A DNA stretch of 64,000 nt from Spirochaetaceae bacterium (lineage in GTDB: Bacteria > Spirochaetota > Spirochaetia > DSM-2461), in contig JAOPTT010000002.1 of the NCBI GenBank assembly GCA_051531975.1, forward strand, positions 441,968 through 505,967, given 5' to 3'. The translations under genes were made by a program, and so were the position numbers. Below are positions 39,091 through 63,757 of this stretch, piece by piece. Position 1 is the stretch's first letter; each line of letters begins with the position of its first letter. The notes under the pieces are model-generated. The model did not search any database. It had not been told where the DNA came from and was given only the letters and a program-made list of their open reading frames with translations.

Positions 39091-39415
39091 TAGTTAGCCT
39101 TTGAATCTTGCTATAATTTTTAACAACTTTTACAAACTGGGATATAACATTAAAATCTTCTGTTGAATAACCATCTTTTCTAAAAGTAAGAGCCATTAGT
39201 GATTTATGTTTGTTCCTATCTACTTCATTAAAGTTACCAACAGAAACACCATAAAGATCTGAAAGTTTTAATAATATTTTTAAAGGAACAGATCTTTTCC
39301 CATTCTCATAATAACTAACTTCTTCCCTTGTAATAGATAAGAACTTAGCTATTTCTTCCTGAGTATAATTTAGTTTATTTCTATATTCTTTAATATTTTT
39401 TCCTATTAATCCCAT
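39080..39415 (-). CDS. XRE-family HTH regulator
   Basis: IGKNIKEYRNKLNYTQEEIA...VSYYENGKR. Confidence 0.93.
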   Translation of the reverse strand: MGLIGKNIKEYRNKLNYTQEEIAKFLSITREEVSYYENGKRSVPLKILLKLSDLYGVSVGNFNEVDRNKHKSLMALTFRKDGYSTEDFNVISQFVKVVKNYSKIQRLTNAV

Positions 39416-43704: not shown

Positions 43705-44103
43705 ATGTGGATTCCCGATCCATTCGAGGCCCCAGTCGAGGCACCAGTCGAGGCCCCAGTCGAGGCACCAGTCGAGGCACCAGTCGAGGCACCAGTCGAG
43801 GCACCAGTCGAGGCACCAGTCGAGGCACCAGTTAAAAACATTGAAAATTTAACTGAAACAGAACAAAAAATATTAGAAATACTAACAAAAGCTACATTAA
43901 GCAGTAAAGAGTTACTGGAATCTTTAGGATATAAGCAAAAAACAGGAAATTATAAAAAGTCGATGGCTAATCTAATTAAATATATATTAATTGAAAGGAC
44001 AATACCTGAAATACCAAACAGCAGGTTACAAAAATATAAATTAACAATAAAAGGGCAACAGCTTGTTTCCCAATTACTAAACAAGGCGAGAAAAAGTGAT
44101 TAA
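43705..44103 (+). pseudogene. C-terminal remnant (repeat linker + winged helix) of a Fic/ATPase-type DNA-binding protein
   Basis: (EAPV)9 then LSSKELLESLG...LIERTIPEIPNSRLQKYKLT, the wHTH tail seen on Fic and AlbA/RecG-like proteins; no N-terminal domain; begins shortly after repeat copy 3. Confidence 0.65.
43726..43833 (+). repeat. 12-bp tandem repeat x9 (GAGGCMCCAGTY), encodes EAPV
   Basis: directly visible; GC-rich against the AT-rich background. Confidence 0.97.
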
Positions 44104-51012: not shown

Positions 51013-51021
51013 GATGTAATT

Positions 51022-52734
51022 TTAAATTTGGCTTTTTATATATTCAATAATATCATTTTTATAATAAAAACCTGTATTTTTTATTGGACTCTTTTCATGT
51101 ATATCAATGGAATTAATATCTGCTCCTTTTTTAATTAGGAATTTAAAAACATCTATACTGTTACAAGCTGCATAATGTAATGGTTGCTTATCCAATATAG
51201 TTTCTGAATGAATATTTACATCATGATCTAGTAAATACTTTAGGACTGAATTACAACCCAAAAGTGCTGCAAAGTGAATAGGTTGTTCACCATCTGTATT
51301 AGTTGAATGTATATCTGCACCCTGCTCTACTAATAAATTGAAATTATTAGGGTCATCTGATTTAGCAGCAAAATGAATAGGTTGCTCACCTTTTAAGGTT
51401 TTAACATTTACATCAACTCCTTCCTCAATAAAATATTGTAAATTATCTAAAGATGAACTACACGCTGCCATGTGCATTGGTTGTTTTCCTTCAAAATCTA
51501 ATGATTTTATATCGGCTCCATTTTCAACTAGTAGCTTTATTGTATCAACTTCCATAAATAAGGATACGTCATGTATCAGCTGGTCCCCATCATTATTCTT
51601 TATATTAATATTTGTACCATTTTCAATTAGAAATCTTATAGCACCATCATCTTTATTAAAATCTGAAAAACGTATTGGTGTATTATTATTAATATTCAAT
51701 GAATTTATATTTGCTCCATTCTTTAATAGATACTCCAATATTTTAAGATCTCTATAATGTTGTACTGCATAATGAATAGGCTGTTTTCCTTTATCATCTT
51801 TTGACGAAATATTTCCACCATGGACTACTAGATACTTTAATATTTCCAGGTTATTAACAGCATAGTGTATTGGTAAACAACCATCGTTATCCTTAGAATG
51901 TATATCCGCACCCTGATCTATTAAATACTTAAAGTCAACGATGGAACCACTTGCTTGGTGATGAATTAATTGCATACCCTCATTATCTCTAAAATGAATA
52001 TCTGCGCCATTTTTAATAAGAATTTTAATAATCTCAAAATCGAATGTATCCATGAATGGAGCTTTACCATCAGTTCCTTTGGAATTAACATCAGCCCCTA
52101 AGTCTATTAAATACTTAAGAATATCAGTATTACTTAGGTTGTTAACAGCAAAATGGATAGGTTGTTGTTCATCAATTGATCTAGAATGAATATCAGCCCC
52201 CATACTTATGAGGTATTTTATAATTTCAATGCTTTCATTATCTGCACCATAATGAATTGGTTGATTTCTAAAGTTATCAATTGCAAAAATATTAGCACCC
52301 TTTTCTACCAAGTATTTAAATTTTTCTATATTCCCAAATGTAGCTGCAACATGTATAGGTTGTAAACCATTTTTATCTTTTGAGTCTATATTTGCACCTT
52401 GTTCAAGTAAAAATTTTAAGATGTCTAAATTATCATTTCTTGATGCATAGTGAACAGGTTGCTCATTTCTGCTATTTTGAGAATGTATATCAGCACCATT
52501 TTGTTCAAGATATTTAATGATACTAAGATCGTTATTCATTGCAGCTTCATGTATTAGGTTGTCCCAAGGATAAAAATATTCATTTGTAATGATCCTCTTG
52601 TTAATATCAAAGCCTTCTGATATCAAAAGTTTTAAATCTTCAAGTTCTATAGTATCTATCCTTTTTATTATTTTATAATCTTCTTCTGAAAACTTTTCAA
52701 TTGAGTTTATTTCTAATTCTTTTTTTTCTATCAT
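51022..52734 (-). CDS. ankyrin repeat protein
   Basis: repeated G.QPIH.AA...KYL...GADI units. Confidence 0.95.
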   Translation of the reverse strand: MIEKKELEINSIEKFSEEDYKIIKRIDTIELEDLKLLISEGFDINKRIITNEYFYPWDNLIHEAAMNNDLSIIKYLEQNGADIHSQNSRNEQPVHYASRNDNLDILKFLLEQGANIDSKDKNGLQPIHVAATFGNIEKFKYLVEKGANIFAIDNFRNQPIHYGADNESIEIIKYLISMGADIHSRSIDEQQPIHFAVNNLSNTDILKYLIDLGADVNSKGTDGKAPFMDTFDFEIIKILIKNGADIHFRDNEGMQLIHHQASGSIVDFKYLIDQGADIHSKDNDGCLPIHYAVNNLEILKYLVVHGGNISSKDDKGKQPIHYAVQHYRDLKILEYLLKNGANINSLNINNNTPIRFSDFNKDDGAIRFLIENGTNINIKNNDGDQLIHDVSLFMEVDTIKLLVENGADIKSLDFEGKQPMHMAACSSSLDNLQYFIEEGVDVNVKTLKGEQPIHFAAKSDDPNNFNLLVEQGADIHSTNTDGEQPIHFAALLGCNSVLKYLLDHDVNIHSETILDKQPLHYAACNSIDVFKFLIKKGADINSIDIHEKSPIKNTGFYYKNDIIEYIKSQI

Positions 52735-52843
52735 GTTGAATCCTTATATATATTTAAATAAATTTAGATAAATTAAACACAAAGTAGATTTGTTTGTAAC
52801 TTCTCAAGCAACTATTTTATTGTTTTAGTATAATGAAGTGTGT

Positions 52844-52858
52844 CGAAAGAATGTTTCG
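52844..52858. promoter_or_regulatory. candidate WYL-regulator operator in the divergent promoter region
   Basis: CGAAA-GAATG-TTTCG dyad between the divergent starts at 52734 and 52909. Confidence 0.35.
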
Positions 52859-52908
52859 TATTAAAATTATTTGTTGAATAATACTCTTTTGAGCTATAAG
52901 CTATATTT

Positions 52909-53817
52909 ATGTCAAAAAACTATGAAGGTGTTGCTGAAAGATTTGCAATAATCCTAAATGAATTAAATATATCAGAGAAAGTACATATAAATAGATTAGT
53001 AGAGGTTACAGGAAGTGATATTCGAAATATTCAAATGGACCTTAATCAGAGATTAAAAGACCCATTTAAAATAGAAACTGATAGAAAAGGGAATTACTGG
53101 TTAGATAAAAAATATCAGGGTTTATATACATCTGAAGAATTAAAAGAGTTTGCTAAAATTGCTGGAATATCAGAGATTTTTCCAGAATTCGATAGTAATT
53201 TCCTTAGAAGCATTATTGATAAAAATATCACCAATTCATTTTTAATTAGACCTCAGTATAAAGATAGGATATATGATAATCATAATTTCAAACTGTTAGT
53301 TGATGCAATAGATAATAGATGCAATATATATTTTAGTTACATAACTAAAAAAAGAAAAACATATGATGTTAGTCCATATAAATTAGTAAATATGTATGGG
53401 CATTGGTATCTGTGTGGAACTCATAATGGAATATTAAAAACGTATAAATTTTCAAAACTTGAGAATATCCATAAAAACAATAATAAGTTTGATTTTAAAG
53501 AATCGGTATTAAATGAGATTGAAAAGTCCGACACAATCTGGATTAGCAATAGAGATGATAGGCAAAATAAGAATATAAAAATAAGAACAAAACCGGAGTT
53601 CACACAATATTTCAAGGAAAATATAACGATACCTGGAGAAATTAATAGATCTGATGAAGAAGATGGATCATTAATTATTACTTTAGAAGCCAATGTTAGT
53701 TATGAAATATTATCTATTATCAAGTGTTGGATACCACGAATAGAAATTGTAGAACCAACTGAACTTAAAGTAGAGTTAAAAGAACAACTAACTGAGTATT
53801 TAAATGAATTAAATTAG
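52909..53817 (+). CDS. WYL-domain transcriptional regulator (wHTH-WYL-WCX)
   Basis: RNIQMDL wHTH; VSPYKLVNMYGHWYLCG; KTYKFSKL; WIPRIEIVEPTEL. Confidence 0.92.
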   Translation: MSKNYEGVAERFAIILNELNISEKVHINRLVEVTGSDIRNIQMDLNQRLKDPFKIETDRKGNYWLDKKYQGLYTSEELKEFAKIAGISEIFPEFDSNFLRSIIDKNITNSFLIRPQYKDRIYDNHNFKLLVDAIDNRCNIYFSYITKKRKTYDVSPYKLVNMYGHWYLCGTHNGILKTYKFSKLENIHKNNNKFDFKESVLNEIEKSDTIWISNRDDRQNKNIKIRTKPEFTQYFKENITIPGEINRSDEEDGSLIITLEANVSYEILSIIKCWIPRIEIVEPTELKVELKEQLTEYLNELN

Positions 53818-53861
53818 ATTAGTAAATAAGAAACAGTTCGGTTATAAATTCCTTTATAATT

Positions 53862-53897
53862 AAACTGACTGCAGTATTCATGTTCTGTAGTTAGTTT
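53862..53897. terminator. hairpin between convergent genes, diverged copy of 45874-45907
   Basis: AAACTGACTGCAG-N10-CTGTAGTTAGTTT (G-U compatible on the + strand), followed by a T run. Confidence 0.55.
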
Positions 53898-53938
53898 TTA
53901 AATATTTCTACAAATTATAATGTTGCATAATTTATTCA

Positions 53939-54673
53939 TCATATCTTTTTAATAATTATAATAAGTCTATTTATATCTTTTCTTAACTCTGTAATTTCAC
54001 CTAGATTACTTATCATATCATCAACAACAATTTCATTATTATCAGGATCACTAATGCAAAACTTATTTCCTACAGTATAAAAATTCCATTGATGTAAACC
54101 ATAATAACTAGCACATTCACCTTCTTTGTAGAAATGGTTTAAATAGAAGAAATGATCAGATTTTAATACCTTTAGACACTCTTTTATAGTGTAGATAGGA
54201 TTGTAAGTATGATCTATAGAATTCCTTGCATGTACTAAATCAAAAGAGTTTTCTTGAAATAAATCAGTTAGAGACTCTCCTAATCCATATTCAGTATAGA
54301 CCGGTGGAATCAGTTTCAAGTTATCTAGTATCCTTCTATATTTTGTAGCTTGCGGATCAATAGGAATTAATACAATTGGTTTATTCATGTAAGTTTTACC
54401 TACCTTACTAATTGGTCCTGCACCTATATCTAAGACTTGAGGAGGCGTTTCGTAATCATGATTATCTAATAGTTCGACAAGATCATTTTGAAGTGGTGAA
54501 TCTTCTTTAAAATGAACCGAAAGCTTCTTTATATTCTTTACTAAGTTTAATTCATGGAACTCAGATCCAACTAACAAAATAGCTAGCTTCCACTTAATGT
54601 ACTTGCTAAGACTTGACGGTATAAGATATGGGAAAATATATTTATATAAAATCAAATAAAGTCTATTTTTCAT
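53939..54673 (-). CDS. class I SAM-dependent methyltransferase
   Basis: VLDIGAGP, IDP, FDLVHARNSIDH, VLK. Confidence 0.85.
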   Translation of the reverse strand: MKNRLYLILYKYIFPYLIPSSLSKYIKWKLAILLVGSEFHELNLVKNIKKLSVHFKEDSPLQNDLVELLDNHDYETPPQVLDIGAGPISKVGKTYMNKPIVLIPIDPQATKYRRILDNLKLIPPVYTEYGLGESLTDLFQENSFDLVHARNSIDHTYNPIYTIKECLKVLKSDHFFYLNHFYKEGECASYYGLHQWNFYTVGNKFCISDPDNNEIVVDDMISNLGEITELRKDINRLIIIIKKI

Positions 54674-54688
54674 AAATTCTCTATCATC

Positions 54689-57676
54689 CTATTTCATAGG
54701 TTTATCTAGTTGTAGTAACCTAGAAACAATATCTTTTCTTATTCTTTTATTAGCATTACTCTTTGGATTTTTTTGATCATAAAAATATAGATAATCATCA
54801 ATTTCAACAACCTTATTAGCCATCTCTACAATTGGTAACATAGTAATCATGTCTGTTGCATAAGGAGAATAAGAATCATTAAAATAGAAATAATCTTCCG
54901 GTATTTTATCAAATAGTTTTTTAGCAAAACTAAGTAGATGTGCCCAGTTATTTCCAATATCAGGCTTTCTTAAGTCGTATAGCCTTCTTTGGTATATCTT
55001 TAGTGGTTTATCAGGTCTGTACATTCCTCCTAACACCACATCGGCTCCATTCTCAAACTCTTCAGATACCTGAGTAAGTACCTCACTATTAAAAAAAGCA
55101 TCATCAGAATCTAAAATTACAATTCTTGAGTGCGGGTTAATGCATATAGTTTTTATGGCAAAAATTAAGTTTTCTAATCTACCTTTAGCAAATGAATTTC
55201 TAATTAGTGTAATATTCTTTAGTAGCGGTTGGACCTTATATAGTAAATCCTTTTGGAATTGTAAGTTCGAAGCATCATCTATTATTACAGCTCCCCAGCT
55301 TCTATATGTCTGTGATTTTAGACTGGTAAAGAATCTTTCGAAATCTATTATATTCTGATTACCACCAATCGATATAACGATTAAATCTTCTTCTCTATGA
55401 GAATAGCTCCAATCGGTAAGAGATCCTTTCAGATTCCATTCATTAAACTGTGTAGAAGGGAAGTATCCCTGCTCTACCAAATCTTGTATTTGTAAATAAC
55501 TACTTTTGTCTACTTTATGTTTATTTTCTGGATGTATGCAGTAAGTTCTAGGATCACCACCCCTTAATGACTTCCAACCTGTTTCATTTTGAAATTTCTC
55601 GATAGACCTATGCCACATAAGTTTTAACAAATCACCATCCATACTATTTGGTAATGGTCTTATACTTTTTAATTTATCTAGATCTATTAGACAGAGAGGA
55701 ATATCAGGGGCATACTCCCCTTCTTCTGCAAAATAGGAAACAATAGGATCATCAATGTATTTAGCTGTATTAAGTCCACAACTTATAGTGTTACTCTCCT
55801 GTAAAGCTGATCTCATAGGTCCTAAATAGTCAATCCACTCTTCAGAACGGAAAACTAGCATATCTACATCCACTTGTAAAAGAAAAGATGTCCTTATATT
55901 GTCAAATGCCCATAACTGAGAAAATAGAGGTGCATTTGAACTTGTATGAGTTTTAGTTGAGTCTAAACAATACCAATTAATATATGTTTCAGCTATCTTT
56001 GTATTATCATCATTAGGTGCAATAATATATTCATCTATTATCTGCATAGATTTAAGTCTTTCTAAGGTATCTAATAAGTACGAATAATTCCCATCTCTAT
56101 ACTGTCTTAGAAAGTTGTTTTTTTTGGGATCGACCAAAACTATAATTGATTGAAAATTATGTCTTCTTCCTAATTGATTAGTTAAATGAACAATTTGATT
56201 TTCTACTAGATGACTATCCATAGCACATGTTTTTATTAAAAAAGTTGTATCAAGATAGTCATAAATGGCCTTAGTTGATGGACATTCATTCGAACTGATA
56301 TTATCCTTAAAAATTAAATCTAAAGTACTTCTATAAAAATCTTCAAAACCATAAATACATTTCAATTCTGTCTCATCATTTCTAAAAATATGAGTACGAA
56401 CCTTTAAAGTAAAATCATCATCTTCCAGGATAAACAGTTGATATAACCTTGCGCACATATCCCTAAAATATTTCATTTTGAAATTATTGATATCTAATCC
56501 TAAATCAATATAGATTAAATCCCCATTATCAGTAACTCTTATATTTTTATATGCGATATTATGGCAAACAACTCTGGCTTCATAACAATTTTTAATAAAT
56601 TCAGTAACTTTTATATTGGATATATTAGTAACTGTCTTAGTATTTATATAATCATAACTAATAGTTTGAGATCTATTATCCGCAGAAATATTAGGATAGA
56701 AGTGATCAAGTTTTTTATATAAATCTATCCTACTAGTTATGAAGTTAAATGAATCTCTTTTATATATTTTTTTTGTGACTCTTCCACACTCATAAGAAAC
56801 TATACCTTCACAACCCCATCCTAAGATGATCTTATCAGACTTAGGGATACTGCCATTAATCCAATATTTAGCAGATTTCATCAGCTTAGTTCTAATATCT
56901 TTATATAAATTATTACATCTGTTACTTGTTGTTATATCACCATTTAGGGTGTAATTAGAATAAATAACATCATCTAATAGAAGACCATATTTTTTATAGT
57001 TTATTAAAAGAAAAGCTAATAGGAAGTGATCTTCAGCACTGGCGATATCAGGATATAATAAACCTAAATCTCTATGAAGCCATAAATTGCATGAACATAA
57101 CTCAGCCTCACATTTTAGAATCCTCATATCATCTAACCTATTTAATAAATATTTATCATCTGTTAGATCTTGTATTGCCATGTTAGGAATTTCCAGAACC
57201 TTACCATTAATATTTTGCACATTCCCTGAAAGCACCCAGTAAATATTTCCTTTATTACGATTAATATGTTTGTAACAATTTTCTATTGAGTTCTCATCAT
57301 ACAAAGTATCATCTGAGTCTAATCTTGAGAACCAAATAGCATCTGGGAAAAACTCTTTAGATTTCTCTAAAAGATTATTTCTAACATTAAATACAGAATC
57401 AAAAACTCCACTTAAAATTACAACTTTAGAATTTGGTAATAGGTCAGCTATACAATCCTTCCAATTATCAGTTGAATCATCATCTGCAATAAGTAAGGCT
57501 ATATGTTTAGTGGAGATTTGATTTAATACTGACAATATTGAGTTTCGAACTGTTTTTATGGAGTTATGAACTGCCATGCATACTACGTGATCAGCATTAA
57601 AAACTCTACTATCACTCCATTCTAATAATCCTTTACAAGAAGAGTTTGAAGAAATCAAAATATCTCTACTTCTCAC
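54689..57676 (-). CDS. multidomain glycosyltransferase: GT2 - kinase-like - GT-A-like - GT2
   Basis: AVHN...DDDSTD...RLDSDD; LGWGCEGIV...HNIAYKNI...IYIDLG; LQVDVDM; IDDAS...ILDSDD. Confidence 0.75.
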   Translation of the reverse strand: MRSRDILISSNSSCKGLLEWSDSRVFNADHVVCMAVHNSIKTVRNSILSVLNQISTKHIALLIADDDSTDNWKDCIADLLPNSKVVILSGVFDSVFNVRNNLLEKSKEFFPDAIWFSRLDSDDTLYDENSIENCYKHINRNKGNIYWVLSGNVQNINGKVLEIPNMAIQDLTDDKYLLNRLDDMRILKCEAELCSCNLWLHRDLGLLYPDIASAEDHFLLAFLLINYKKYGLLLDDVIYSNYTLNGDITTSNRCNNLYKDIRTKLMKSAKYWINGSIPKSDKIILGWGCEGIVSYECGRVTKKIYKRDSFNFITSRIDLYKKLDHFYPNISADNRSQTISYDYINTKTVTNISNIKVTEFIKNCYEARVVCHNIAYKNIRVTDNGDLIYIDLGLDINNFKMKYFRDMCARLYQLFILEDDDFTLKVRTHIFRNDETELKCIYGFEDFYRSTLDLIFKDNISSNECPSTKAIYDYLDTTFLIKTCAMDSHLVENQIVHLTNQLGRRHNFQSIIVLVDPKKNNFLRQYRDGNYSYLLDTLERLKSMQIIDEYIIAPNDDNTKIAETYINWYCLDSTKTHTSSNAPLFSQLWAFDNIRTSFLLQVDVDMLVFRSEEWIDYLGPMRSALQESNTISCGLNTAKYIDDPIVSYFAEEGEYAPDIPLCLIDLDKLKSIRPLPNSMDGDLLKLMWHRSIEKFQNETGWKSLRGGDPRTYCIHPENKHKVDKSSYLQIQDLVEQGYFPSTQFNEWNLKGSLTDWSYSHREEDLIVISIGGNQNIIDFERFFTSLKSQTYRSWGAVIIDDASNLQFQKDLLYKVQPLLKNITLIRNSFAKGRLENLIFAIKTICINPHSRIVILDSDDAFFNSEVLTQVSEEFENGADVVLGGMYRPDKPLKIYQRRLYDLRKPDIGNNWAHLLSFAKKLFDKIPEDYFYFNDSYSPYATDMITMLPIVEMANKVVEIDDYLYFYDQKNPKSNANKRIRKDIVSRLLQLDKPMK

Positions 57677-59342
57677 AAACTTCTCCTTTTGAATATAGAT
57701 ACTTCCAAGTTTTTGATATAACTCTTTTATTCTTAGTTAAGCTAAGTTGTTTGGGTATATATTCTTGATTATTGAATTTTCCACAATATTTACAAAACTT
57801 ATTTAATAAATCTTCCATATTATCATCTGGTTTGGGAAGTTTTACTCTACCATAACTCCAATCAAAGAAACGATCGATACTACCTGACACAGCACAAGGA
57901 TAATACCTACCATTTGGAGACAATCCTAGACCGCAATAGTGAATATTTGAGCAACCATTTCTGTAGTTATGTAAGTGATGTGAAATTTTGTCCTTTGGAG
58001 CATCGTTAAAATTATAGAAATGATTTGTTTGCTTCATATGTTTTTTAGAATTTTCAATAAAGAAATATTTAGGAGTACTTAATAATTTCCTTTCAACATC
58101 ATTACCACTACCATTAGTAACAATGTCAATCTGAGTTGATGGGTATTTTAGCTTGTATTCTGTTAATATATCTAATACCTCAAAGTATTTTGAATGCAGA
58201 GTAGGTTCTCCCCCAAGGATACGAATTCTCTCCCAGACTCTATTATGCGTTATTGAGTCATGGACAAAATTTCTTAAAACCTGGGTATTCATCTCTATAA
58301 AAGATTTAATTTCATCACATGACCTATTACAACTAGTACAACTTAAATTGCAGTTATATGTAATATCAATTTCAATCTGTTTATGATTAACACTATATTT
58401 TCTTGGTACTAAAACATTGAGTTTAGATACTCTTATTTTAGACATAAAGTTCAGTGATCTATATTTTAAGTAATTTAATAGTTTTGATTTATTAGAGTTA
58501 TTTTTTATTGGAAAATAATCTTCTACATCAGAATTAATTGCTTCTAAAAAGAATAAAGCTCTTGGTACTAGAAACTTATCTTCAGCTCTATCCAAAAACC
58601 CCTGTTTTATCTCTTCACTCATTTTGGAGTTATGTTTTCTCCAAAATTGTAACAACCCAGCTTTCTTAGAAGGACTACCTTTTGTTGTTAATACAGTCCT
58701 ACCTGAATCAATTCTATAAAACATTGTTCTAACTCTAGTAACAGTACCTGAAAAGTTTTTATGTGAAATTGATCGTACTGCTAAGTCCCGATCATGTGTT
58801 GAAACTTGTTTCTCATCAAAACTTCCAACTTCTTTTAGAAAACTTAACTTCATGAATGTATTTGAACCCTGCCATCCAGGATTACCTTTTAAGAAATCGT
58901 TTACATCAATGTTTTGAACAATATTTTGACAACAACTAAAATTATCTTTAGTAACTTCAGTTCCACTAATAACTGTATTTATATCACTCTTTATATGACT
59001 TTCACATATGCTAATATGGTTATTGGTCCACTCATCATCATCATCTAAAATAGCAACCCAACCAGTTTCATCCATAAAATATAAAAAATCAATTCCAGTA
59101 TTCCAGTTTCCTGCCGCTCCAGGTGTATGAGAATTTTCTAAGTAAGTAATATTGAAATCAGAAAGCTCTTCTTGAAAAATCCTCTTATTAGCTGATTTAA
59201 CATCTTGATCAGTAGAATCATCTACTAAGACTACATAATCCGGTCTTCTATCTTGATTCAAAACTGATTTTAATGACCTATTTTTTAATAGTTCAGTTCT
59301 ATTAAATGTAGTTATTAAAACGTAGATCTTTTGTTTGTACAT
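57666..59342 (-). CDS. GT2 glycosyltransferase fused to a radical SAM domain with a Cys-rich C-terminus
   Basis: ITTFNR, VDDS, LDDDDEW; EIDITYNCNLSCTSC (CX3CX2C), GGEPTLH, TNG, YPC...CKYC. Confidence 0.85.
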   Translation of the reverse strand: MYKQKIYVLITTFNRTELLKNRSLKSVLNQDRRPDYVVLVDDSTDQDVKSANKRIFQEELSDFNITYLENSHTPGAAGNWNTGIDFLYFMDETGWVAILDDDDEWTNNHISICESHIKSDINTVISGTEVTKDNFSCCQNIVQNIDVNDFLKGNPGWQGSNTFMKLSFLKEVGSFDEKQVSTHDRDLAVRSISHKNFSGTVTRVRTMFYRIDSGRTVLTTKGSPSKKAGLLQFWRKHNSKMSEEIKQGFLDRAEDKFLVPRALFFLEAINSDVEDYFPIKNNSNKSKLLNYLKYRSLNFMSKIRVSKLNVLVPRKYSVNHKQIEIDITYNCNLSCTSCNRSCDEIKSFIEMNTQVLRNFVHDSITHNRVWERIRILGGEPTLHSKYFEVLDILTEYKLKYPSTQIDIVTNGSGNDVERKLLSTPKYFFIENSKKHMKQTNHFYNFNDAPKDKISHHLHNYRNGCSNIHYCGLGLSPNGRYYPCAVSGSIDRFFDWSYGRVKLPKPDDNMEDLLNKFCKYCGKFNNQEYIPKQLSLTKNKRVISKTWKYLYSKGEVCEK

Positions 59343-59351
59343 TTTTTCCTT

Positions 59352-59966
59352 TTAGCTTTCTTGTTTTATTTTTTTTAAAAATGAATATCTTATTAGATAT
59401 AAAAATGGAGTTAATAGTATTGCAAGACTAAATTTGATAATTATCTGCCCCATTATCATTGGTAATATGTTAATAGAAGAATAAAAAGCAATAAAAATAA
59501 ATAATATTGAGTCTATAATCTGTGAAATAGTAGTAGAACCTATCGATCTCAACCATAGATATTTGTTGTTAGTGAGTCTTTTAAAGAAATGAAACAACCA
59601 AACATCATTATATTGTGAAACGATGTATGCAATTACAGAAGCTATAATTATTCTACTATTAGTACCTATAAATGAATCAAAAATTTCATGATCATTCCAA
59701 AATGGTGCTGCTGGTAGTACTCTACTAACATGAGATAGTACCATACTGACAAGTAAGACAATAAATCCCATTTGTACAACAGATTTTGAAACCTTAGTCC
59801 CATATATTTCTGATATAACATCAGTTATTAAGTAAGTTATAGAGTATGCAATAATACCTGCGGGAGCATAGAAACCTGCTATATCAATTGTTTTATATGC
59901 TATAAAAGATGCTGTTATTAATGATGCTGAAAATATACCAGTCAAGTAAAGAAGTTTTCCATCCAA
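59352..59966 (-). CDS. queuosine precursor transporter (YhhQ/VUT family)
   Basis: YLITDVISEIYG, RIIIASVIAYIVSQYNDV, LWLRSIGST.ISQIIDS..F..IAF. Confidence 0.9.
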   Translation of the reverse strand: MDGKLLYLTGIFSASLITASFIAYKTIDIAGFYAPAGIIAYSITYLITDVISEIYGTKVSKSVVQMGFIVLLVSMVLSHVSRVLPAAPFWNDHEIFDSFIGTNSRIIIASVIAYIVSQYNDVWLFHFFKRLTNNKYLWLRSIGSTTISQIIDSILFIFIAFYSSINILPMIMGQIIIKFSLAILLTPFLYLIRYSFLKKIKQES

Positions 59967-60136
59967 TTTTTATATCTCCATTTTAAATAATAATTTATCG
60001 TATAATAAATGTAGAAAATCGTCAAATTGAAAGTTCACTATTTTTTTTTGAATATTGTAATAGATATCAAAGTAACAATAATTTTTTAGCTTTAAGATAT
60101 TATATTTTAAGAATATGGCTATCACAAAAATACTAA

Positions 60137-61114
60137 CTATTTCTTAGAAACATTCTGTCCCTTAATTTTTACCAAACCACGCTTTTCAGCAGCCTCAACT
60201 AACTTTTTTATCTTAGAATATCCATATGAACCTATATTAATTTTATTGTCTTTCAATTTTTGAGCTAGTAAAGAAAAATTTACACAATCTTTATTCGATT
60301 TAGCTAGAAGAGAATTCAAATGTTTAATTACTAATTTAAAAATAACAGGAATTGTTTCTACATTTTTTCCTATTTGAATAATATGACCCTTATCTTCACT
60401 AATTAATTTAATATCACTATATCTTTTCGTTAATTCAATGATTAAACTCTTCCATGTTTTATGATTAAGATCTTTCTCATTAAAATTTTCATTTAATAAT
60501 TTAACCCTTACTTTTACTGCACCCAATAAAGGTTTTTTATTTTTTTGTAACAACATTGCTACAGATTCTCGAACATTTTCAGCGGCTATATCATATGTTA
60601 ATTTTACATTATCACTATTATCTTGTCCCAGACTATCTTCTTCATTATTATTATCATAATCATCAGGGATGAGATCTCTATAATCTTTGTATGTATCTGC
60701 TAATTGTAATAAATCTTCACTTGCTGATTGAGAATCACAAATAATAACAATCTCTTTACCATGCTTTCTAAGTGTTATCAGCAGATGTCTAAAATCAACA
60801 TCTCCAGTTACTATAATAAATTTAGTTATATGAGGATACAAAAATAAAACTTCTATGGCATTTGAAACTAATTTATGATCGCTACTATTTTTTTTAGCAT
60901 TTGGAACATGAATCATTTCAAATGATTTATCAGCTAAAATTTCTGTTGTTTTTGAAACTTGTGATTTTGTCCAGTCAGCAAAAGCCGTTGCTAGTGTTAA
61001 CTTACCCATTTCACTGACATAATCTAATAAACCATGAACAAAGTCAGAATCAGTACTTGGTGTTACATTTTCAACATCCCAAAATATCGCAATGTTATCT
61101 AATTTCTCTTTCAT
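60137..61114 (-). CDS. NYN-domain (PIN-like) RNase with two LOTUS/OST-HTH-like domains
   Basis: AIFWDVENV, KNSSD, VTGDVDF, LRKHGK; FNEKDLN and YGYSKIKKLVE. Confidence 0.88.
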   Translation of the reverse strand: MKEKLDNIAIFWDVENVTPSTDSDFVHGLLDYVSEMGKLTLATAFADWTKSQVSKTTEILADKSFEMIHVPNAKKNSSDHKLVSNAIEVLFLYPHITKFIIVTGDVDFRHLLITLRKHGKEIVIICDSQSASEDLLQLADTYKDYRDLIPDDYDNNNEEDSLGQDNSDNVKLTYDIAAENVRESVAMLLQKNKKPLLGAVKVRVKLLNENFNEKDLNHKTWKSLIIELTKRYSDIKLISEDKGHIIQIGKNVETIPVIFKLVIKHLNSLLAKSNKDCVNFSLLAQKLKDNKINIGSYGYSKIKKLVEAAEKRGLVKIKGQNVSKK

Positions 61115-61150
61115 AAATACTCCAACCTCATATTGCCTAATTAGTGATAA

Positions 61151-62857
61151 TTATAGATATACTATATTGTTTTGATTTAAATAATCTATAAACTGATCGG
61201 AGGTTGTAAATGGGAGATTAATCTGAAGGGATGAACTTATTTCATCTATATTAATATTTAATTCTGTATAATCTTTCTCCATAACAGCTTTATTTATTGA
61301 ATTACTGATACTTTTATATCTAAGTTGATTTTCAGCTAATTTTTTTAATGCAGTAGTATTAAATGAAGCTGTATTACTTTGAATCTCTTTTATTCTGTTA
61401 TTGAAAATTTCTTGTATTTTATTATGTCTTTTTTCTGCTTTAACACTAAAGAAATCCATGGAATCAAAGAAATATAGAAGTAAAGCTGTAATTAATGCCG
61501 TCAAAATAGATGACAAAATAATTGATAAAGGTTCAGTAATGCCTACTTTATTTAGTAATGCTTCAACTCCAACTCCAATTAAAAGAGAAGAAGAAGCAGC
61601 AATTAACTTTAATATAGCATCACCTTTTTTAGCTTTTGATAATTGACTATTAGGTTGTTTTAGGATTTTAAAAGCCTGACTAATTATTTTAAATCCTTCT
61701 TTAATTAATCGGACAACTTGTTTGAGCATACCAACTAAACAACTAATTATTGCACTAATGATACTTTTTATTATATTTTTTATGAAGTTTAAAACTTCCC
61801 CTTTCAAGAAAACTTCAGCTTCTATTAATACAAAATCTTTTACTCTTGAGAATCTATAAACTAAAGCATCAACCTTAGATGATAACCCTACACCATATTC
61901 TAATCCATTTTTAAAGCAATCATTCACCTCATAAAATAAAGGTTTAATCATAAATAAAACGACATTACCTAATGCAGCATCTTTAGAAGCTGATTTTGCA
62001 TTTTTTAGTAATACGCTTTGAGACTCTTTATCATTTATAACATTTTTTAATACAGCTTTATTCATATTATTATTTAGTTGTTTTTGAGCATTTTTTCCAA
62101 GTTTAATCATATTATTTTTATCATTATTATTAAGGTGTGCTGCTTTATCATCATTTTTAACATAATCTTTATTAGTATCATCTCTTTTTTCATTATTAGT
62201 TTGCCTACTAGTTACAGCCAGATTATATTCAGAATTTGCTATCTCTTTAATATCGTTTTCACTTAAGAGATAATTACCTTGTGTTTGGTTGAATAAATCT
62301 TTTAGTGGAACAATATGATCACTCTCAGCAGAATTGTTCACTGAAGCATTATGTTCTCTAGATAAAACTCTTCCAATCTCATATTCATCATTTATATTAC
62401 CATCTTTAGATTTATTATTCTTATAATTATCCATTTTATGTTTATTTTCATAATCTTTTCTTATATATTCGGAACGTTCAGTTTCTGTAAATTCTTTATT
62501 AAAATCACGTTGATTAATTTCTTCAGAATAGCTATCTAGAGAAGTAGTTATATTCCCTGATTTACTGTAAGTAAAGTTTTCACATTCATTTAATATCCTC
62601 GATGCTGTTACACCACTTTTCCCTCCAAGTTTGAATGCCCTAATCACACCATCAGCTAAACCTAAGAAAGTAGGTTTAACAACTGATTCTGTTATACTAC
62701 CACCATCTTTTTCAAATTCCGCATATACTTCTTCAATTATAGTTTGTGCCTCTTTCATGTCATGTAATTCACTTTCAATTAATAAAGATCCTAACTCTAG
62801 AGGTGAAGATGTTTCTATATCATGTTTTAATTTATCTATATCTATAATATTTTCCAT
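61151..62857 (-). CDS. protein with an HNH-like nuclease motif and C-terminal membrane helices
   Basis: ESDHIVPL...NLAVTSRQTNNEK; hydrophobic segments around residues 360-460; coiled-coil tail. Confidence 0.65.
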   Translation of the reverse strand: MENIIDIDKLKHDIETSSPLELGSLLIESELHDMKEAQTIIEEVYAEFEKDGGSITESVVKPTFLGLADGVIRAFKLGGKSGVTASRILNECENFTYSKSGNITTSLDSYSEEINQRDFNKEFTETERSEYIRKDYENKHKMDNYKNNKSKDGNINDEYEIGRVLSREHNASVNNSAESDHIVPLKDLFNQTQGNYLLSENDIKEIANSEYNLAVTSRQTNNEKRDDTNKDYVKNDDKAAHLNNNDKNNMIKLGKNAQKQLNNNMNKAVLKNVINDKESQSVLLKNAKSASKDAALGNVVLFMIKPLFYEVNDCFKNGLEYGVGLSSKVDALVYRFSRVKDFVLIEAEVFLKGEVLNFIKNIIKSIISAIISCLVGMLKQVVRLIKEGFKIISQAFKILKQPNSQLSKAKKGDAILKLIAASSSLLIGVGVEALLNKVGITEPLSIILSSILTALITALLLYFFDSMDFFSVKAEKRHNKIQEIFNNRIKEIQSNTASFNTTALKKLAENQLRYKSISNSINKAVMEKDYTELNINIDEISSSLQINLPFTTSDQFIDYLNQNNIVYL

Positions 62858-62875: not shown

Positions 62876-63757
62876 TTAAGCTGCAAGTAAAACTTCTATC
62901 TCTTTATACTTCTCTGTTACAATAGCGAGGTCTTTTTTTTCAATCTCTACATTGGAATTACTTAAATACCTTAGTCGAGATAATTCTCCAAGTATAATCG
63001 CTACTGAAAAAGTAGCTCTAAGTTGTTCTAAAATTTGTGTAGGAAGAAAAGACGCATCTAATTTTTTATTCTTCATTGGGAAACCAAGCATAATATGGTG
63101 AGAGAGTAAATAATTAGTCGCGAAATCACAATCATCAATTAGATTTGAGAATATACTTATTAGATCATTAAAATATTTTTCAACTTGTTCTATAGATTTA
63201 ACAGTTAGTTTTATTTTATTAACCTCTGAATCCATTTTTGCATAAATTTCTTTCGCTTTTAATTCTTCTTCTTCAACACGTAATAGGGTTTCCTTTGCCC
63301 TTTTTCTTGTCAAAAATCCTAAAGTAAAAACAGCTTGAGCATTAGTTTTAAATTTATGATTATCAAAATCAATTAGAAATAAATCACTTTTACTTTTTAA
63401 TGATTCTTTCGTTTTAATTTCATAATCGAAGATTTCGCATATTTCGGTTTCTTTAATACCAATATTGTGAAAATTTTTCATTTTATCAGTAAATAAAGGG
63501 AAATATTGGTTATGAATTAGTTTTTTATTATTATTTATTGATTTAAGAGATGTTTTTATTTTCTGGGTTTCTATATCAATATCATTTTCGAACCTATTCT
63601 TTTTTAATTCAAATTCAGCTTTTAATGCTTCATATCGACGTTTAGCTTCATCATGATCCGTTTTACCAGAAAATGAACCCCAACAATTAGATACAACACT
63701 TTTAACTTTCTTGGTAGCAGCTGATACTTTTTCTTTTATCCAACCAAACAACCCCAT
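62876..63757 (-). CDS. coiled-coil hypothetical protein
   Basis: amphipathic N-terminus MGLFGWIKEKV, long heptad regions; translationally coupled to the upstream gene. Confidence 0.7.
   Translation of the reverse strand: MGLFGWIKEKVSAATKKVKSVVSNCWGSFSGKTDHDEAKRRYEALKAEFELKKNRFENDIDIETQKIKTSLKSINNNKKLIHNQYFPLFTDKMKNFHNIGIKETEICEIFDYEIKTKESLKSKSDLFLIDFDNHKFKTNAQAVFTLGFLTRKRAKETLLRVEEEELKAKEIYAKMDSEVNKIKLTVKSIEQVEKYFNDLISIFSNLIDDCDFATNYLLSHHIMLGFPMKNKKLDASFLPTQILEQLRATFSVAIILGELSRLRYLSNSNVEIEKKDLAIVTEKYKEIEVLLAA

What the first reader, a model, noticed from the sequence alone, without database searches (positions are those of the whole stretch)
53939..59966. Queuosine-precursor transporter heading a GT2-radical SAM / multi-GT-kinase / methyltransferase operon: candidate 7-deazapurine hypermodification system
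Seen: four co-oriented genes with gaps of 9, -11 and 15 nt, inside a defence-like island. No flippase, polymerase or nucleotide-sugar genes are present as would be expected for a surface polysaccharide locus, and there is no tgt/dpdA/que gene in the window. Knowledge: YhhQ imports preQ0/preQ1/queuine; eukaryotic tRNA queuosine is glycosylated by dedicated glycosyltransferases; 7-deazaguanines are used in phage-host DNA modification conflicts. Inference: the operon imports a deazapurine and glycosylates, radical-modifies and methylates it, on tRNA or DNA or as a free nucleoside (antibiotic or anti-phage metabolite). The yhhQ adjacency could also be incidental.
Basis: partly seen in the sequence, partly recalled or inferred. 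Interest (0 to 1): 0.8.

Follow-up and report, generated by a model that had tools for sequence, protein, structure and literature searches.

The report
Deazaguanine-linked glycosylation operon in defence island
A four-gene operon joins an extra importer for queuosine-precursor bases to a widely scattered, uncharacterised set of sugar-adding enzymes that sits among anti-phage genes, and relatives elsewhere are repeatedly wired to genes that supply the same base.

Summary
Four tightly packed minus-strand genes encode YhhQ, a GT2-radical SAM fusion, a 995-aa protein (GT-A / kinase-like / GT-A / GT-A) and a methyltransferase. McrBC, a type I R-M system and a Gabija-like pair lie within 20 kb.

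The GT2, radical SAM and 995-aa parts form a conserved, patchily distributed cellular module. The big protein lies beside GT2/rSAM in 67 of 80 genome loci. It was found in 2 of 401 genomes of the phylum and in 0 viral contigs. It often sits inside R-M operons or on mobile elements.

- The window's yhhQ is an extra paralogue, not found in the three same-genus genomes searched.
- One other locus (L080) has yhhQ in the same position, and the two YhhQs are sisters in a tree.
- QueC is the overlapping last gene of the operon in 8 of 150 other loci, in two lineages.
- A full preQ0 operon abuts the module in one more locus.
- The host has no queC or queF.

YhhQ and QueC both deliver cytoplasmic preQ0. 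I read the module as building a glycosylated, methylated, radical-SAM-tailored 7-deazaguanine conjugate, probably from the free base and probably for phage defence. Substrate and product are inferred, not shown. No tgt lies nearby.

The parts
59352..59966 (-). yhhQ: queuosine-precursor (preQ0/preQ1/queuine family) transporter. First gene of the operon, TTG start. An extra, island-borne paralogue.
   Evidence: Vut_1 at 2.1e-47. TIGR00697 at 153.9 bits against cut-off 50.95. Hydrophobic segments present. A second copy lies at G000:C16. The three same-genus genomes hold only the C16 type. Sister to the yhhQ of L080 in a tree, SH-aLRT 90, on long branches.
57666..59342 (-). GT2-radical SAM fusion. 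The GT-A glycosyltransferase covers about aa 1-270 (nt 58533-59342). The rSAM covers about aa 310-558 (nt 57666-58415), with CX3CX2C and five further conserved Cys.
   Evidence: PF00535 at 49.8 bits; PF04055 at 25-27 bits, under its cut-off. C331/C335/C338 invariant in 38 sequences. C464, C470, C483, C517 and C520 conserved. Model pLDDT 85.8. Top structural hits are AvpGT Z 22.7, WrtF 22.4 and SpsA 22.1, which are tied. No TM-like segment.
54689..57676 (-). 995-aa four-domain protein. D1 is GT2 (nt 56852-57589). D2 is protein-kinase-like with Asn at the catalytic-Asp position (nt 56297-56830). D3 is a GT-A-like domain with invariant Q601/D603/D605 (nt 55397-56263). D4 is GT2 (nt 54692-55384).
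   Evidence: Pfam on segments. Alignment of 33 sequences. Model pLDDT 86.4. Structural hits: D1/D4 resemble GT2 enzymes, and D3 resembles POMGnT1 (Z 14.0) and MGAT2 (Z 12.6). D2 gives weak kinase matches, E 0.064, and RIO1/APH/Kdo-kinase clusters at 0.96. It lies beside GT2/rSAM in 67 of 80 loci.
53939..54673 (-). Class I SAM-dependent methyltransferase. Last gene of the operon.
   Evidence: Methyltransf_31/11. A 50%-identical homologue lies beside the module in L016. Other methyltransferases are beside or fused into the module: the c18 family in L025, L042, L051 and L076, and fused in the two 1750-1761-aa forms scanned.
60137..61114 (-). NYN-domain (predicted RNase) protein upstream of the operon, 170 nt away on the same strand. 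A possible accessory gene.
   Evidence: PF01936 at 3.7e-24. NYN genes head the homologous archaeal operons L003, L004 and L007. tblastn of the window's NYN matches the L007 gene at 31% identity.
52909..53817 (+). WYL/WCX-domain regulator, convergent with the operon's 3' end. A possible regulator.
   Evidence: WYL at 1e-08 and WCX at 1.6e-07. PADLOC WYL at 4.6e-24. WYL genes lie beside the module in L029, L041, L047 and L201, but they do not match the window's WYL by tblastn.
60099..60127 (-). Sigma-70-like promoter match between the NYN gene and yhhQ.
   Evidence: TTGTGA-17-TATAAT, 10 of 12. The scan as a whole was not above its shuffles (42 found against a mean of 53), so this is only a pointer.

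Best explanation
This is a horizontally acquired operon in a defence island. It couples an extra YhhQ importer of 7-deazaguanine bases to a conserved, soluble, cytoplasmic glycosylation module. The module comprises a GT2-radical SAM fusion, a 995-aa protein with three GT-A domains and an atypical kinase-like domain, and a methyltransferase.

Proposed mechanism (inferred):
1. The host cannot make preQ0, so YhhQ brings in preQ0 or preQ1.
2. The GT2 domain of the fusion glycosylates the base or a close derivative.
3. The radical SAM domain, which is of SPASM/twitch type, tailors the sugar.
4. The three further GT-A domains extend the glycan.
5. The kinase-like domain binds nucleotide, or phosphorylates the glycan.
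6. The methyltransferase caps the product.

The product would be a decorated 7-deazaguanine glycoside, that is, a non-ribosyl nucleoside. Its genomic company points to a role in phage defence.

Shown here: gene order, domain content, conservation of the module, its mobility and defence context, and its recurrent operonic linkage to preQ0-supply genes.

Inferred only: the acceptor, the order of steps, the product and the biological role.
For: **Conserved module.**
- The big protein is adjacent to GT2/rSAM in 67 of 80 genome loci.
- GT2/rSAM is present in 62 of 70 metagenome loci that were found with the big protein.

**Recurrent linkage to preQ0 supply.**
- yhhQ heads the operon here and in L080, 2 nt before the fused gene. 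The two modules group together (95*) and so do the two YhhQs (90) in their trees, both on long branches.
- QueC directly follows the big protein, with ORFs overlapping or abutting, in 2 of 80 genome loci and 6 of 70 metagenome loci. On the tree this needs two changes. The two QueC groups are only about 32% identical to each other.
- The QueCs of L020, L072 and L015 pass the QueC equivalog cut-off, and L218's matches Pfam QueC at 8.5e-61.
- In L218 and L220 the GT2-rSAM-big-QueC operon is followed by a TrwC relaxase gene. In L218 it also lies between a type I R-M system and an integrase gene. QueC is therefore cargo of a mobile element.
- L015 has folE2-queD-queE-queC directly abutting the module.

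**Host logic.**
- The window's genome (98.5% complete) has tgt and queA but no queC and no queF.
- Of 56 module-bearing genomes checked for QueC, it is one of three without any QueC-like match, and it carries yhhQ in the operon.
- Neither the module nor this yhhQ type was found in the 3 same-genus genomes. The module was not found in any of 30 relatives.

**A common theme of free-base supply around this GT2 subfamily.**
- SLOG (LOG-like) genes lie beside the 1200-1780-aa fused forms in 12 of 80 loci.
- GTP cyclohydrolase II plus NADAR lie beside, or are fused to, the 760-930-aa forms in L012, L019 and L063.

**Precedents.**
- GT2 enzymes that glycosylate 7-deazapurine nucleosides exist: AvpGT is the (tied) top hit by profile, Foldseek and VIA (PMC11959488, passages read).
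- preQ0 is O-methylated and then glycosylated in huimycin biosynthesis (bioRxiv 10.64898/2026.04.15.718813, passages read).
- A proven preQ0-using system, Dpd, carries YhhQ in only about 9% of its islands (PMC12235509, passage read). A linkage of about 7% (10 of 150 loci) is therefore not too low.

**Cytoplasmic and defence-associated.**
- The three enzymes have no TM-like segments.
- The module sits between McrB and McrC (L036), inside type I R-M operons (L016, L017, L077), and next to BREX, GmrSD, Cas3, AbiE, Wadjet, reverse transcriptases and integrases.
Against: - 140 of 150 other loci show no deazapurine gene beside the module.
- yhhQ recurs only once, and that case may share one origin with the window's.
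- In G429, G430 and G431 the adjacent QueC is the genome's only QueC. It could therefore be the housekeeping gene next to which the module landed.
- L020 and L072 belong to one lineage (big proteins 64% identical).
- L015 and L012 could reflect clustering of unrelated defence systems.
- QueC is common anyway (9-12 of 14 control genomes), so its near-universal presence in module-bearing genomes is weak evidence.
- The AvpGT match is tied with ordinary glycan GT2s.
- No preQ1 riboswitch lies upstream.
- Four GT-A domains suggest an oligosaccharide, which is more typical of glycans on proteins, lipids or polymers than of nucleoside metabolites.
- The kinase-like domain lacks the catalytic Asp.
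- No experiment bears on any step.
Confidence: 0.45

Rival explanations
1. The module glycosylates a 7-deazaguanine that is already in nucleic acid. This would be queuosine in tRNA (as eukaryotic galactosyl- and mannosyl-queuosine), preQ0/archaeosine-type bases in tRNA, or 7-deazaguanine in DNA. The host's own Tgt would do the insertion, and YhhQ or QueC would only secure the precursor.
For: - The same linkage to yhhQ and queC as above.
- The host has tgt and queA.
- NYN (RNase-like) genes accompany the module here and in 3 archaeal loci.
- A paralogous GT2 cassette lies next to DpdA-DpdB, DpdB and FolE2 in L012.
- The module is embedded in R-M operons, as a DNA-modification module would be.
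- Recalled, not tested here: the eukaryotic galactosyl-queuosine transferase is a GT2-family enzyme.
Against: - No tgt, queA or dpdA lies beside the full module in 150 loci.
- The module occurs in both bacteria and marine group II archaea. From general knowledge, these share free preQ0 but not the same modified tRNA base.
- No nucleic-acid-binding domain was detected in the three enzymes.
- There are 0 relatives of the big protein in 2.9 million viral contigs, unlike typical DNA-hypermodification genes.
- The neighbouring restriction systems differ from locus to locus, so no fixed R partner exists.
Confidence: 0.2
2. The module has nothing to do with deazapurines. It is a mobile cytoplasmic glycosylation or defence module with another acceptor: a host or phage protein, a nucleotide, or a cell-envelope precursor. 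On this reading yhhQ and queC are neighbours by chance, by a preferred insertion site, or because defence genes cluster.
For: - 140 of 150 other loci lack any que or yhhQ neighbour.
- The adjacent QueC is the only QueC of its genome in three cases.
- The structural neighbours are polymerising or glycan GT2s: K4CP, heparosan synthase, LARGE1, TarP/TarS, WrtF and SunS.
- UDP-glucose dehydrogenase and epimerase genes are the commonest accessory enzymes.
- A sialyltransferase-like family (c2) accompanies the module in 23 of 80 and 20 of 70 loci.
Against: - A QueC ORF overlapping or abutting the end of the big gene arose in two lineages whose QueCs are only about 32% identical.
- In one of these lineages QueC rides on a mobile element with the module.
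- The yhhQ here is an extra copy that is present only together with the module. It pairs with the yhhQ of the only other yhhQ-linked module.
- Rough arithmetic of my own: QueC immediately downstream of a given gene is expected in about 1 of 3000-4000 loci, so two independent cases among some tens of lineages is unlikely by chance.
- No conserved precursor peptide or target gene travels with the module.
Confidence: 0.28
3. It is an ordinary surface polysaccharide, LPS or teichoic-acid-type glycosylation locus.
For: There are GT2 domains with weak NCBIfam similarity to WcaA, PglI, TuaG and EpsE. TarP, TarS and RmlT are among the fold hits.
Against: - All NCBIfam matches are far below their cut-offs, for example WcaA at 53.8 bits against 382.
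- No TM-like segment is present in the enzymes.
- No flippase, polymerase, priming transferase or exporter was seen in the window or among the representatives scanned for 383 neighbour families of the 80 loci.
- The context is R-M, McrBC, CRISPR and mobile elements, not envelope genes.
- The distribution is patchy: 2 of 401 genomes of the phylum.
Confidence: 0.05

Closest known systems
Huimycin / dapiramicin-type 7-deazapurine glycoside biosynthesis (Kutzneria, Micromonospora). preQ0 is O-methylated by HuiC and then glycosylated by HuiG. Source: bioRxiv 10.64898/2026.04.15.718813, passages read.
   Same: A preQ0 supply, a SAM methyltransferase and glycosyltransferase(s) acting on the free base. 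No transglycosylase is involved.
   Different: - The known clusters use a GT of family PF13439, according to the paper, not GT2.
- They have no radical SAM and no multi-GT or kinase-like protein.
- They carry the whole preQ0 pathway and lie in actinomycete secondary-metabolite clusters, not in defence islands of diverse bacteria and archaea.
- Homology to HuiC and HuiG was not tested here, because no sequences were in hand.
Nucleoside-specific GT2 glycosyltransferases AvpGT, NucGT and ScaGT. AvpGT is the 3'-O-glucosyltransferase of tubercidin, a 7-deazaadenosine. Source: PMC11959488, passages read; PDB 9jma and 9jn3.
   Same: GT2 fold. AvpGT is the top hit of the fusion's GT2 domain by profile (E 4.8e-5), by Foldseek (9.8e-12) and by VIA (Z 22.7, rmsd 2.7 over 239 residues). 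Its acceptor is a 7-deazapurine nucleoside.
   Different: - The match is tied with WrtF and SpsA, and identity is about 17%.
- AvpGT is a stand-alone enzyme acting on the ribose 3'-OH.
- Here the domain is fused to a radical SAM enzyme, and the acceptor is unknown.
Dpd 7-deazaguanine DNA modification/restriction system (dpdA-K).
   Same: Located in defence islands and dependent on preQ0. Only a minority of islands carry their own preQ0 genes or YhhQ: about 9% carry YhhQ according to PMC12235509 (passage read).
   Different: The defining DpdA transglycosylase and DpdB are absent from the window and from all 150 full-module loci. They appear only beside a paralogous GT2 cassette in L012.
Hexopyranosyl-nucleoside antibiotic pathways (blasticidin S). 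A free base is made, coupled to UDP-glucuronate, and then tailored by the radical SAM enzyme BlsE. The pathway is recalled; PDB 7vob is 'cytosylglucuronate decarboxylase'.
   Same: The logic of free base plus NDP-sugar, then GT, then radical SAM tailoring. UDP-glucose dehydrogenase genes accompany the module in 11 of 150 loci. SLOG/LOG-like genes, which could release bases, accompany related forms.
   Different: Sequence similarity to BlsE is not significant (E 0.031). No CGA-synthase homology was tested. The base and the context differ.
Prokaryotic viperins (pVip): radical SAM enzymes that make antiviral nucleotide analogues.
   Same: A radical SAM enzyme in a defence context. There is a weak N-terminal match (PADLOC pVip at 8.9e-10).
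   Different: The NCBIfam viperin model scores 29.7 bits against a cut-off of 180, so this is not a viperin. The nearest solved relatives by profile are SPASM/twitch-type enzymes: GDGT-MAS at 3e-7, YydG at 4e-6 and CteB at 8e-5.
Type IV CBASS Cap9/Cap10 'deazaguanylation' (bioRxiv 10.1101/2025.04.06.647259; only the search listing and the start of the abstract were seen).
   Same: A defence system that draws on the 7-deazapurine pool through QueC-like and TGT-like proteins.
   Different: Here the linked QueCs are true QueC by the equivalog cut-off. No TGT-like protein and no CBASS genes are present.

Membership tests
YhhQ / COG1738 queuosine-precursor transporter (TIGR00697) | Sequence model above the curated cut-off | tested here: met
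   153.9 bits against 50.95. Pfam Vut_1 at 161.8 bits against 27.2.
YhhQ / COG1738 queuosine-precursor transporter (TIGR00697) | Polytopic membrane protein | tested here: met
   Several hydrophobic 19-residue windows above 1.6 on the Kyte-Doolittle scale. This is a crude test.
YhhQ / COG1738 queuosine-precursor transporter (TIGR00697) | Transports preQ0, preQ1 or queuine | not testable with these tools
   Needs uptake or complementation assays.
Radical SAM superfamily | CX3CX2C cluster-binding motif | tested here: met
   C331, C335 and C338 are invariant in 38 sequences and in 30 stand-alone homologues.
Radical SAM superfamily | Pfam PF04055 above its gathering score | tested here: not met
   25.1-27.4 bits against 29.5. 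Homologues in other loci do pass, for example the rSAM part of L080 at 34.1 bits.
SPASM/twitch radical SAM enzymes | C-terminal Cys set for an auxiliary Fe-S cluster | tested here: inconclusive
   Five conserved Cys: C464, C470, C483, C517 and C520. The nearest solved relatives are SPASM/twitch enzymes. No SPASM Pfam match was found.
Glycosyltransferase family 2 (PF00535) | Model above cut-off, GT-A fold and an acidic DXD-type motif | tested here: met
   49.8, 42.7 and 36.7 bits against 23.3 for the three GT2 domains. D100-D103 are invariant in the fusion. Structural Z scores are 17-23 to GT2 structures.
Protein-kinase-like fold, active kinase (APH / RIO / Kdo-WaaP type) | Gly-rich loop, VxK lysine and a Mg-binding Asp (DFG-like) | tested here: met
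   Invariant G286, G288, E290, G291, K302, N378 and D391. The atlas gives RIO1/APH/Kdo clusters at 0.96. The PDB profile match is weak, E 0.064.
Protein-kinase-like fold, active kinase (APH / RIO / Kdo-WaaP type) | Catalytic Asp of the HxD...N loop | tested here: not met
   This position is Asn (N373; family consensus 'NIKRxNL') in at least 90% of 33 sequences. The register rests on a weak alignment.
Prokaryotic viperin (NF038283) | Model above the curated cut-off | tested here: not met
   29.7 bits against 180.
Dpd 7-deazaguanine DNA modification system | DpdA (TGT-like DNA transglycosylase) and DpdB in the locus | tested here: not met
   Neither appears in the Pfam/NCBIfam scans of the window's ORFs of at least 100 aa. 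The genome's only tgt match is on contig C6. tblastn with the DpdA-DpdB of L012 hits only L012 among 150 loci.
7-deazapurine glycoside (huimycin-like) biosynthetic cluster | preQ0 source, methyltransferase and glycosyltransferase together | tested here: met
   YhhQ, the methyltransferase and four GT-A domains lie in one operon.
7-deazapurine glycoside (huimycin-like) biosynthetic cluster | Homology to HuiC and HuiG, and a 7-deazapurine glycoside product | not tested
   No HuiC or HuiG sequence was in hand. The product needs chemistry.
Surface polysaccharide locus | Flippase, polymerase or exporter, and a priming transferase | tested here: not met
   None in the window, and none among the neighbour families of 80 loci.

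The most novel reading that the evidence does not exclude
The GT2-radical SAM / multi-GT module is a new kind of anti-phage system that works through the 7-deazaguanine pool. It would turn preQ0 into a bulky glycosylated base or non-ribosyl nucleoside.

That product could act in one of three ways:
- as an antiviral antimetabolite;
- as a signal for neighbouring effectors or regulators (NYN, WYL);
- by sabotaging the preQ0-based DNA modification that many phages use to escape restriction.

The third option would explain why the module is so often embedded inside type I R-M and McrBC operons.
Probability: 0.15. Interest if true: 0.9.

Novelty: new variant of a known kind. Interest (0 to 1): 0.72.

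Why it matters
If the reading is right, this is a widespread gene set, found in bacteria and marine archaea, that diverts the queuosine precursor preQ0 into a glycoconjugate. The family has about 423 representatives at 50% identity with E ≤ 1e-30.

It would be a third fate for 7-deazaguanines, besides tRNA/DNA insertion and actinomycete antibiotics. It sits in the middle of defence islands.

It gives a concrete, cheap test. Feed the base, express four genes and look for the adduct. The test bears on three open questions: what non-tRNA uses the deazaguanine pool has, what the many orphan glycosyltransferase/radical SAM genes in defence islands do, and how hosts might counter phages that hide their DNA with deazaguanines.

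Four literature searches found no description of the module. PADLOC 2.0 has no model for it.

Tried and rejected
- **Riboswitch.** Rfam found nothing in window 52500-61500 at E ≤ 1 except a chance miRNA match. It found nothing at gathering score in L080, L184, L218, L020, L072 and L015.
- **Known defence system.** PADLOC gave no system for the three enzymes or for YhhQ.
- **Phage origin.** There are 0 relatives of the big protein in viral contigs. The GT2-rSAM profile found only generic GT2 at 25-37% identity.
- **Earlier notes of this scan.** Nothing by place, by sequence or by words.
- **Expression.** No RNA holder was listed.
- **Fold searches on the whole models.** The lists were filled by GT-A domains.
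- **c2 family.** No Pfam, PADLOC or PDB sequence match. The only leads are sialyltransferase-like atlas hits at 0.82-0.85.
- **Promoter and terminator scan.** Not above shuffles, and no terminator found.
- **tRNA genes as island borders.** None in window 36000-64000 or in the next 20 kb.
- **QueC presence in module-bearing genomes as a dependency test.** 42 of 50 are over the cut-off, and 6 more have near-cut-off or partial matches. I judged this too close to the background rate to count for much.
- **An apparent queA hit near L057 and L067.** It was the neighbouring ruvB ORF of the query locus, not queA.

Full report
**1. Observation**

- The first gene is a YhhQ-family transporter: Vut_1 at 2.1e-47, and TIGR00697 at 153.9 bits against a cut-off of 50.95.
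- The second is a fusion of a GT2 glycosyltransferase and a radical SAM domain. The rSAM Pfam score lies just under its cut-off. However, its CX3CX2C motif (C331/C335/C338) is invariant in 38 homologues, and five further Cys are conserved.
- The third, of 995 aa, gave a confident model (pLDDT 86.4) with four domains.
  - D1 and D4 are GT2 domains.
  - D3 is a third GT-A-like domain with invariant Q601, D603 and D605. Its best hits are POMGnT1 at Z 14.0 and MGAT2 at Z 12.6.
  - D2 is a protein-kinase-like domain.
- The fourth is a class I methyltransferase.

D2 has the Gly-rich loop, the lysine and the DFG-like Asp. It has Asn where the catalytic Asp should be, in at least 90% of 33 sequences. 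The protein atlas places it with RIO1, APH and Kdo-kinase clusters at 0.96. It should be called kinase-like, not kinase.

None of the three enzymes has a TM-like segment.

The surroundings are a true defence island. Inside the window are a WYL regulator, an NYN protein and a homologue of the PADLOC candidate PDC-M40B. In the next 20 kb are IS21, McrBC, a type I R-M system and an OLD/UvrD pair.

**2. What the enzymes belong to**

Full-length relatives of the GT2-rSAM fusion are about 40% identical and nearly all unnamed.

A scan of one genome per species with the fusion profile gave 174 matching stretches, of which 80 loci were kept. They come from marine group II archaea, Planctomycetota, Myxococcota, Fibrobacterota and many Pseudomonadota, including cultured Myxococcus, Corallococcus, Vibrio, Photobacterium, Shewanella, Marinobacter and Comamonas. 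In 67 of the 80 the 995-aa protein lies next to the GT2/rSAM genes.

The parts can be fused or split:
- a GT2-rSAM fusion;
- GT2 and rSAM as separate genes;
- everything fused into one 1580-aa protein, as in L080;
- the big protein split into two genes.

Related forms of 1200-1780 aa occur in 12 of the 80 loci. The two I scanned (1750 and 1761 aa) join the same GT2 to a methyltransferase and, in the one checked by tblastn, to D3-D4. These forms lie next to a SLOG/LOG-like gene.

A profile of the big protein finds 423 representatives at E ≤ 1e-30 among 1.84 billion. It finds no relative in 2.9 million viral contigs.

Within the window's own phylum the module was found in 2 of 401 genomes. It was found in none of 30 closer relatives. 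So it is rare, mobile and cellular.

**3. Context of the module elsewhere**

I clustered the ORFs of the 80 loci and scanned a representative of each of 383 neighbour families (ORFs of at least 100 aa within four genes of the module) against Pfam. No polysaccharide export or priming genes appeared.

What recurs falls into three groups.
- **Defence and mobility genes.**
  - The module lies between McrB and McrC in L036.
  - It lies between hsdR and hsdM/S in L016, L017 and L077.
  - It lies next to BREX PglZ/BrxL (L032), GmrSD (L055, L056), Cas3/Cse1/Cse2 (L052), AbiE (L043), Wadjet (L036) and a BsuBI/PstI R-M pair (L080).
  - Also nearby are reverse transcriptases, HipA, PIN, integrases and transposases.
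- **Sugar-nucleotide genes.** UDP-glucose dehydrogenase occurs in 8 of 80 loci and epimerase/dehydratase in 11 of 80.
- **A 250-300-aa family with no Pfam match (c2).** It occurs in 23 of 80 loci and has GNGP / PSxG / HNWxGERR motifs. Its atlas hits are weak and sialyltransferase-like.

**4. The deazapurine question**

*yhhQ.* The genome has two Vut_1 genes. The three same-genus genomes have only the type found on contig C16. The window's copy has no match above 39% identity in 30 relatives. The same relatives lack the module, so the two probably arrived together.

Among 150 other loci, yhhQ appears once, in L080 (a Bacteroidales MAG). There it is again the gene directly upstream, 2 nt before the fused enzyme. 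In trees the two modules group together (95*, with the archaeal ones) and the two YhhQs are sisters (90). Both placements rest on long branches. This looks like one old linkage kept through deep divergence: the YhhQs are 38% identical and the big proteins 29%.

*queC.* In L020 and L072 a QueC ORF overlaps the stop of the big gene by 4 nt. These two loci are one lineage: the big proteins are 64% identical and the QueCs 69%.

An independent scan of metagenome contigs with the big-protein profile kept 70 loci. In six of them (L184, L218, L219, L220, L224, L230; L218 and L219 are identical) QueC is again the fourth gene of a GT2-rSAM-big-QueC operon, with overlapping or abutting ORFs. These QueCs are 51-57% identical to that of L015 and about 32% identical to those of L020/L072.

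I built a tree of 79 big proteins. L219 was left out as a duplicate. L015 was left out because its big protein is split. Twelve rows could not be scored because the contig ends within 700 nt. On this tree the trait needs two changes.

In L218 and L220 the operon is followed by a TrwC relaxase gene. In L218 it also lies between a type I R-M system and an integrase gene. QueC is therefore cargo of a mobile element.

In L015 a folE2-queD-queE-queC operon abuts the module convergently.

The QueCs of L020, L072 and L015 pass the QueC equivalog cut-off.

*Against.*
- In three genomes the adjacent QueC is the only one, so it may simply be the housekeeping gene.
- 140 of 150 loci show nothing of the kind.
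- tgt and queA are never adjacent.
- dpdA and dpdB appear only beside a paralogous GT2 cassette in L012.
- No riboswitch was found.

*Calibration.* In the Dpd system, which is known to consume preQ0, YhhQ is present in only about 9% of islands (PMC12235509, passage read). A linkage in 10 of 150 loci is in the range of a true preQ0-dependent system.

*Host logic.* The window's genome (98.5% complete) has tgt and queA but neither queC nor queF. It must salvage its deazaguanine.

I checked 56 module-bearing genomes for QueC. Forty-seven are over the cut-off, and six more have near-cut-off or partial matches. The three with none are the window's genome, a 0.9-Mb MAG and one genome with the long fused form. 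The window's genome is the one that carries a transporter in the operon.

**5. Mechanism**

YhhQ and QueC are unrelated proteins with one thing in common: both deliver preQ0 to the cytoplasm. That is the simplest reason for both to be wired to the same module.

Three further points favour the free base over a base already in nucleic acid:
- no transglycosylase travels with the module;
- the module occurs in both bacteria and archaea;
- related GT2 forms sit beside other enzymes that could release free bases, namely SLOG/LOG-like proteins, or GTP cyclohydrolase II with NADAR.

There are chemical precedents.
- preQ0 is O-methylated and then glycosylated in huimycin biosynthesis, and a disaccharide is attached in dapiramicin (bioRxiv 10.64898/2026.04.15.718813, passages read).
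- GT2 enzymes glycosylate 7-deazapurine nucleosides: AvpGT, PMC11959488, passages read.
- AvpGT is the top hit of the fusion's GT2 domain in three searches, but it is tied with ordinary GT2s. That counts as plausibility, not proof.
- The rSAM domain is nearest to SPASM/twitch enzymes. It could tailor the sugar, as BlsE or BtrN do (recalled; their matches here are not significant).

I therefore propose this sequence: import, first glycosylation, radical tailoring, extension by up to three more GT-A domains, and methylation. The kinase-like domain would be a nucleotide-binding or atypical transferase module. Every step after import is inference.

**6. Role**

The company the module keeps argues for phage defence or an adjunct to restriction. 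I could not test this. The boldest consistent idea is that it spoils or weaponises the preQ0 pool that many phages use to mask their DNA. I give that about 15%.

**7. Verdict**

The deazapurine link is real enough to act on, but the target and the product are open.
- The system is not in PADLOC 2.0, and I found no paper describing it.
- I file it as a new variant of a known kind, namely 7-deazapurine glycoside pathways. It has a real chance of being something more.

Noticed in passing
window 61151-62857 and 62876-63757 (minus strand): A 568-aa protein matching the PADLOC candidate defence family PDC-M40B (5.6e-23), followed by a 293-aa protein with no family match. Both lie directly upstream of the NYN gene.
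   Followed up: no
L231 = G000:C2:505000-524999, just beyond the window's right end: IS21 (IstA/IstB), McrC plus a McrB-like AAA_5 protein, type I R-M (HsdS, HsdM, HsdR), and an OLD-family AAA_15/TOPRIM protein with a UvrD helicase (Gabija-like). The operon lies at the edge of a large defence island.
   Followed up: partly
window 49210-52734 (minus strand): A 570-aa ankyrin-repeat protein and a 600-aa TPR protein lie next to the operon. Ankyrin proteins also flank the module in L021 and L069.
   Followed up: no
L012 4318-18620; also L019 and L063: A separate cassette built on the same GT2 subfamily. It holds GT2 (760-930 aa, fused to GTP cyclohydrolase II in L012), NADAR, an asparagine-synthase-like amidotransferase and an arylamine N-acetyltransferase. 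In L012 it lies beside a DpdA-DpdB fusion, DpdB and FolE2. It looks like glycosylation of a GTP-derived pyrimidine base.
   Followed up: partly
L037, L038, L049, L059, L060, L061, L070, L071, L073, L074, L076, L081: Long fused proteins (about 1200-1780 aa), next to a SLOG cluster-4 (LOG-like) gene in 12 of 80 loci. The two scanned (1750 and 1761 aa) combine GT2, a methyltransferase and a second GT2, and have no radical SAM.
   Followed up: partly
L013, L016, L017, L024, L025 and others (23 of 80 genome loci, 20 of 70 metagenome loci): A 250-300-aa family (c2) with GNGP / PSxG / HNWxGERR motifs and no Pfam, PADLOC or PDB sequence match. It is always next to the module in Pseudomonadota. Atlas leads point to sialyltransferases (GT29, CST-I) at 0.82-0.85.
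   Followed up: partly
L003, L004, L007 (marine group II archaea): A tight operon of NYN, UDP-glucose dehydrogenase, GT2-rSAM, a roughly 1200-aa big protein and an epimerase. L007 adds a dual-specificity phosphatase. A divergent 255-aa gene of no known family (c9) lies alongside.
   Followed up: no
L036 6750-16008: The GT2, rSAM and big-protein genes lie co-directionally between a McrB-like AAA_5 gene and a McrC gene, with Wadjet JetD/JetC next door.
   Followed up: no
G000 whole genome: The genome has tgt and queA but no queC or queF match at 98.5% completeness, and it has two YhhQ paralogues. The organism appears to depend on salvaged preQ1 or queuine for tRNA queuosine.
   Followed up: partly
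window 38377-39415 (minus strand): An ImmA/IrrE-type M78 peptidase with an overlapping HTH_3 repressor gene, a pair typical of mobile elements. A Fic-like C-terminal domain protein lies at 43705-44103.
   Followed up: no
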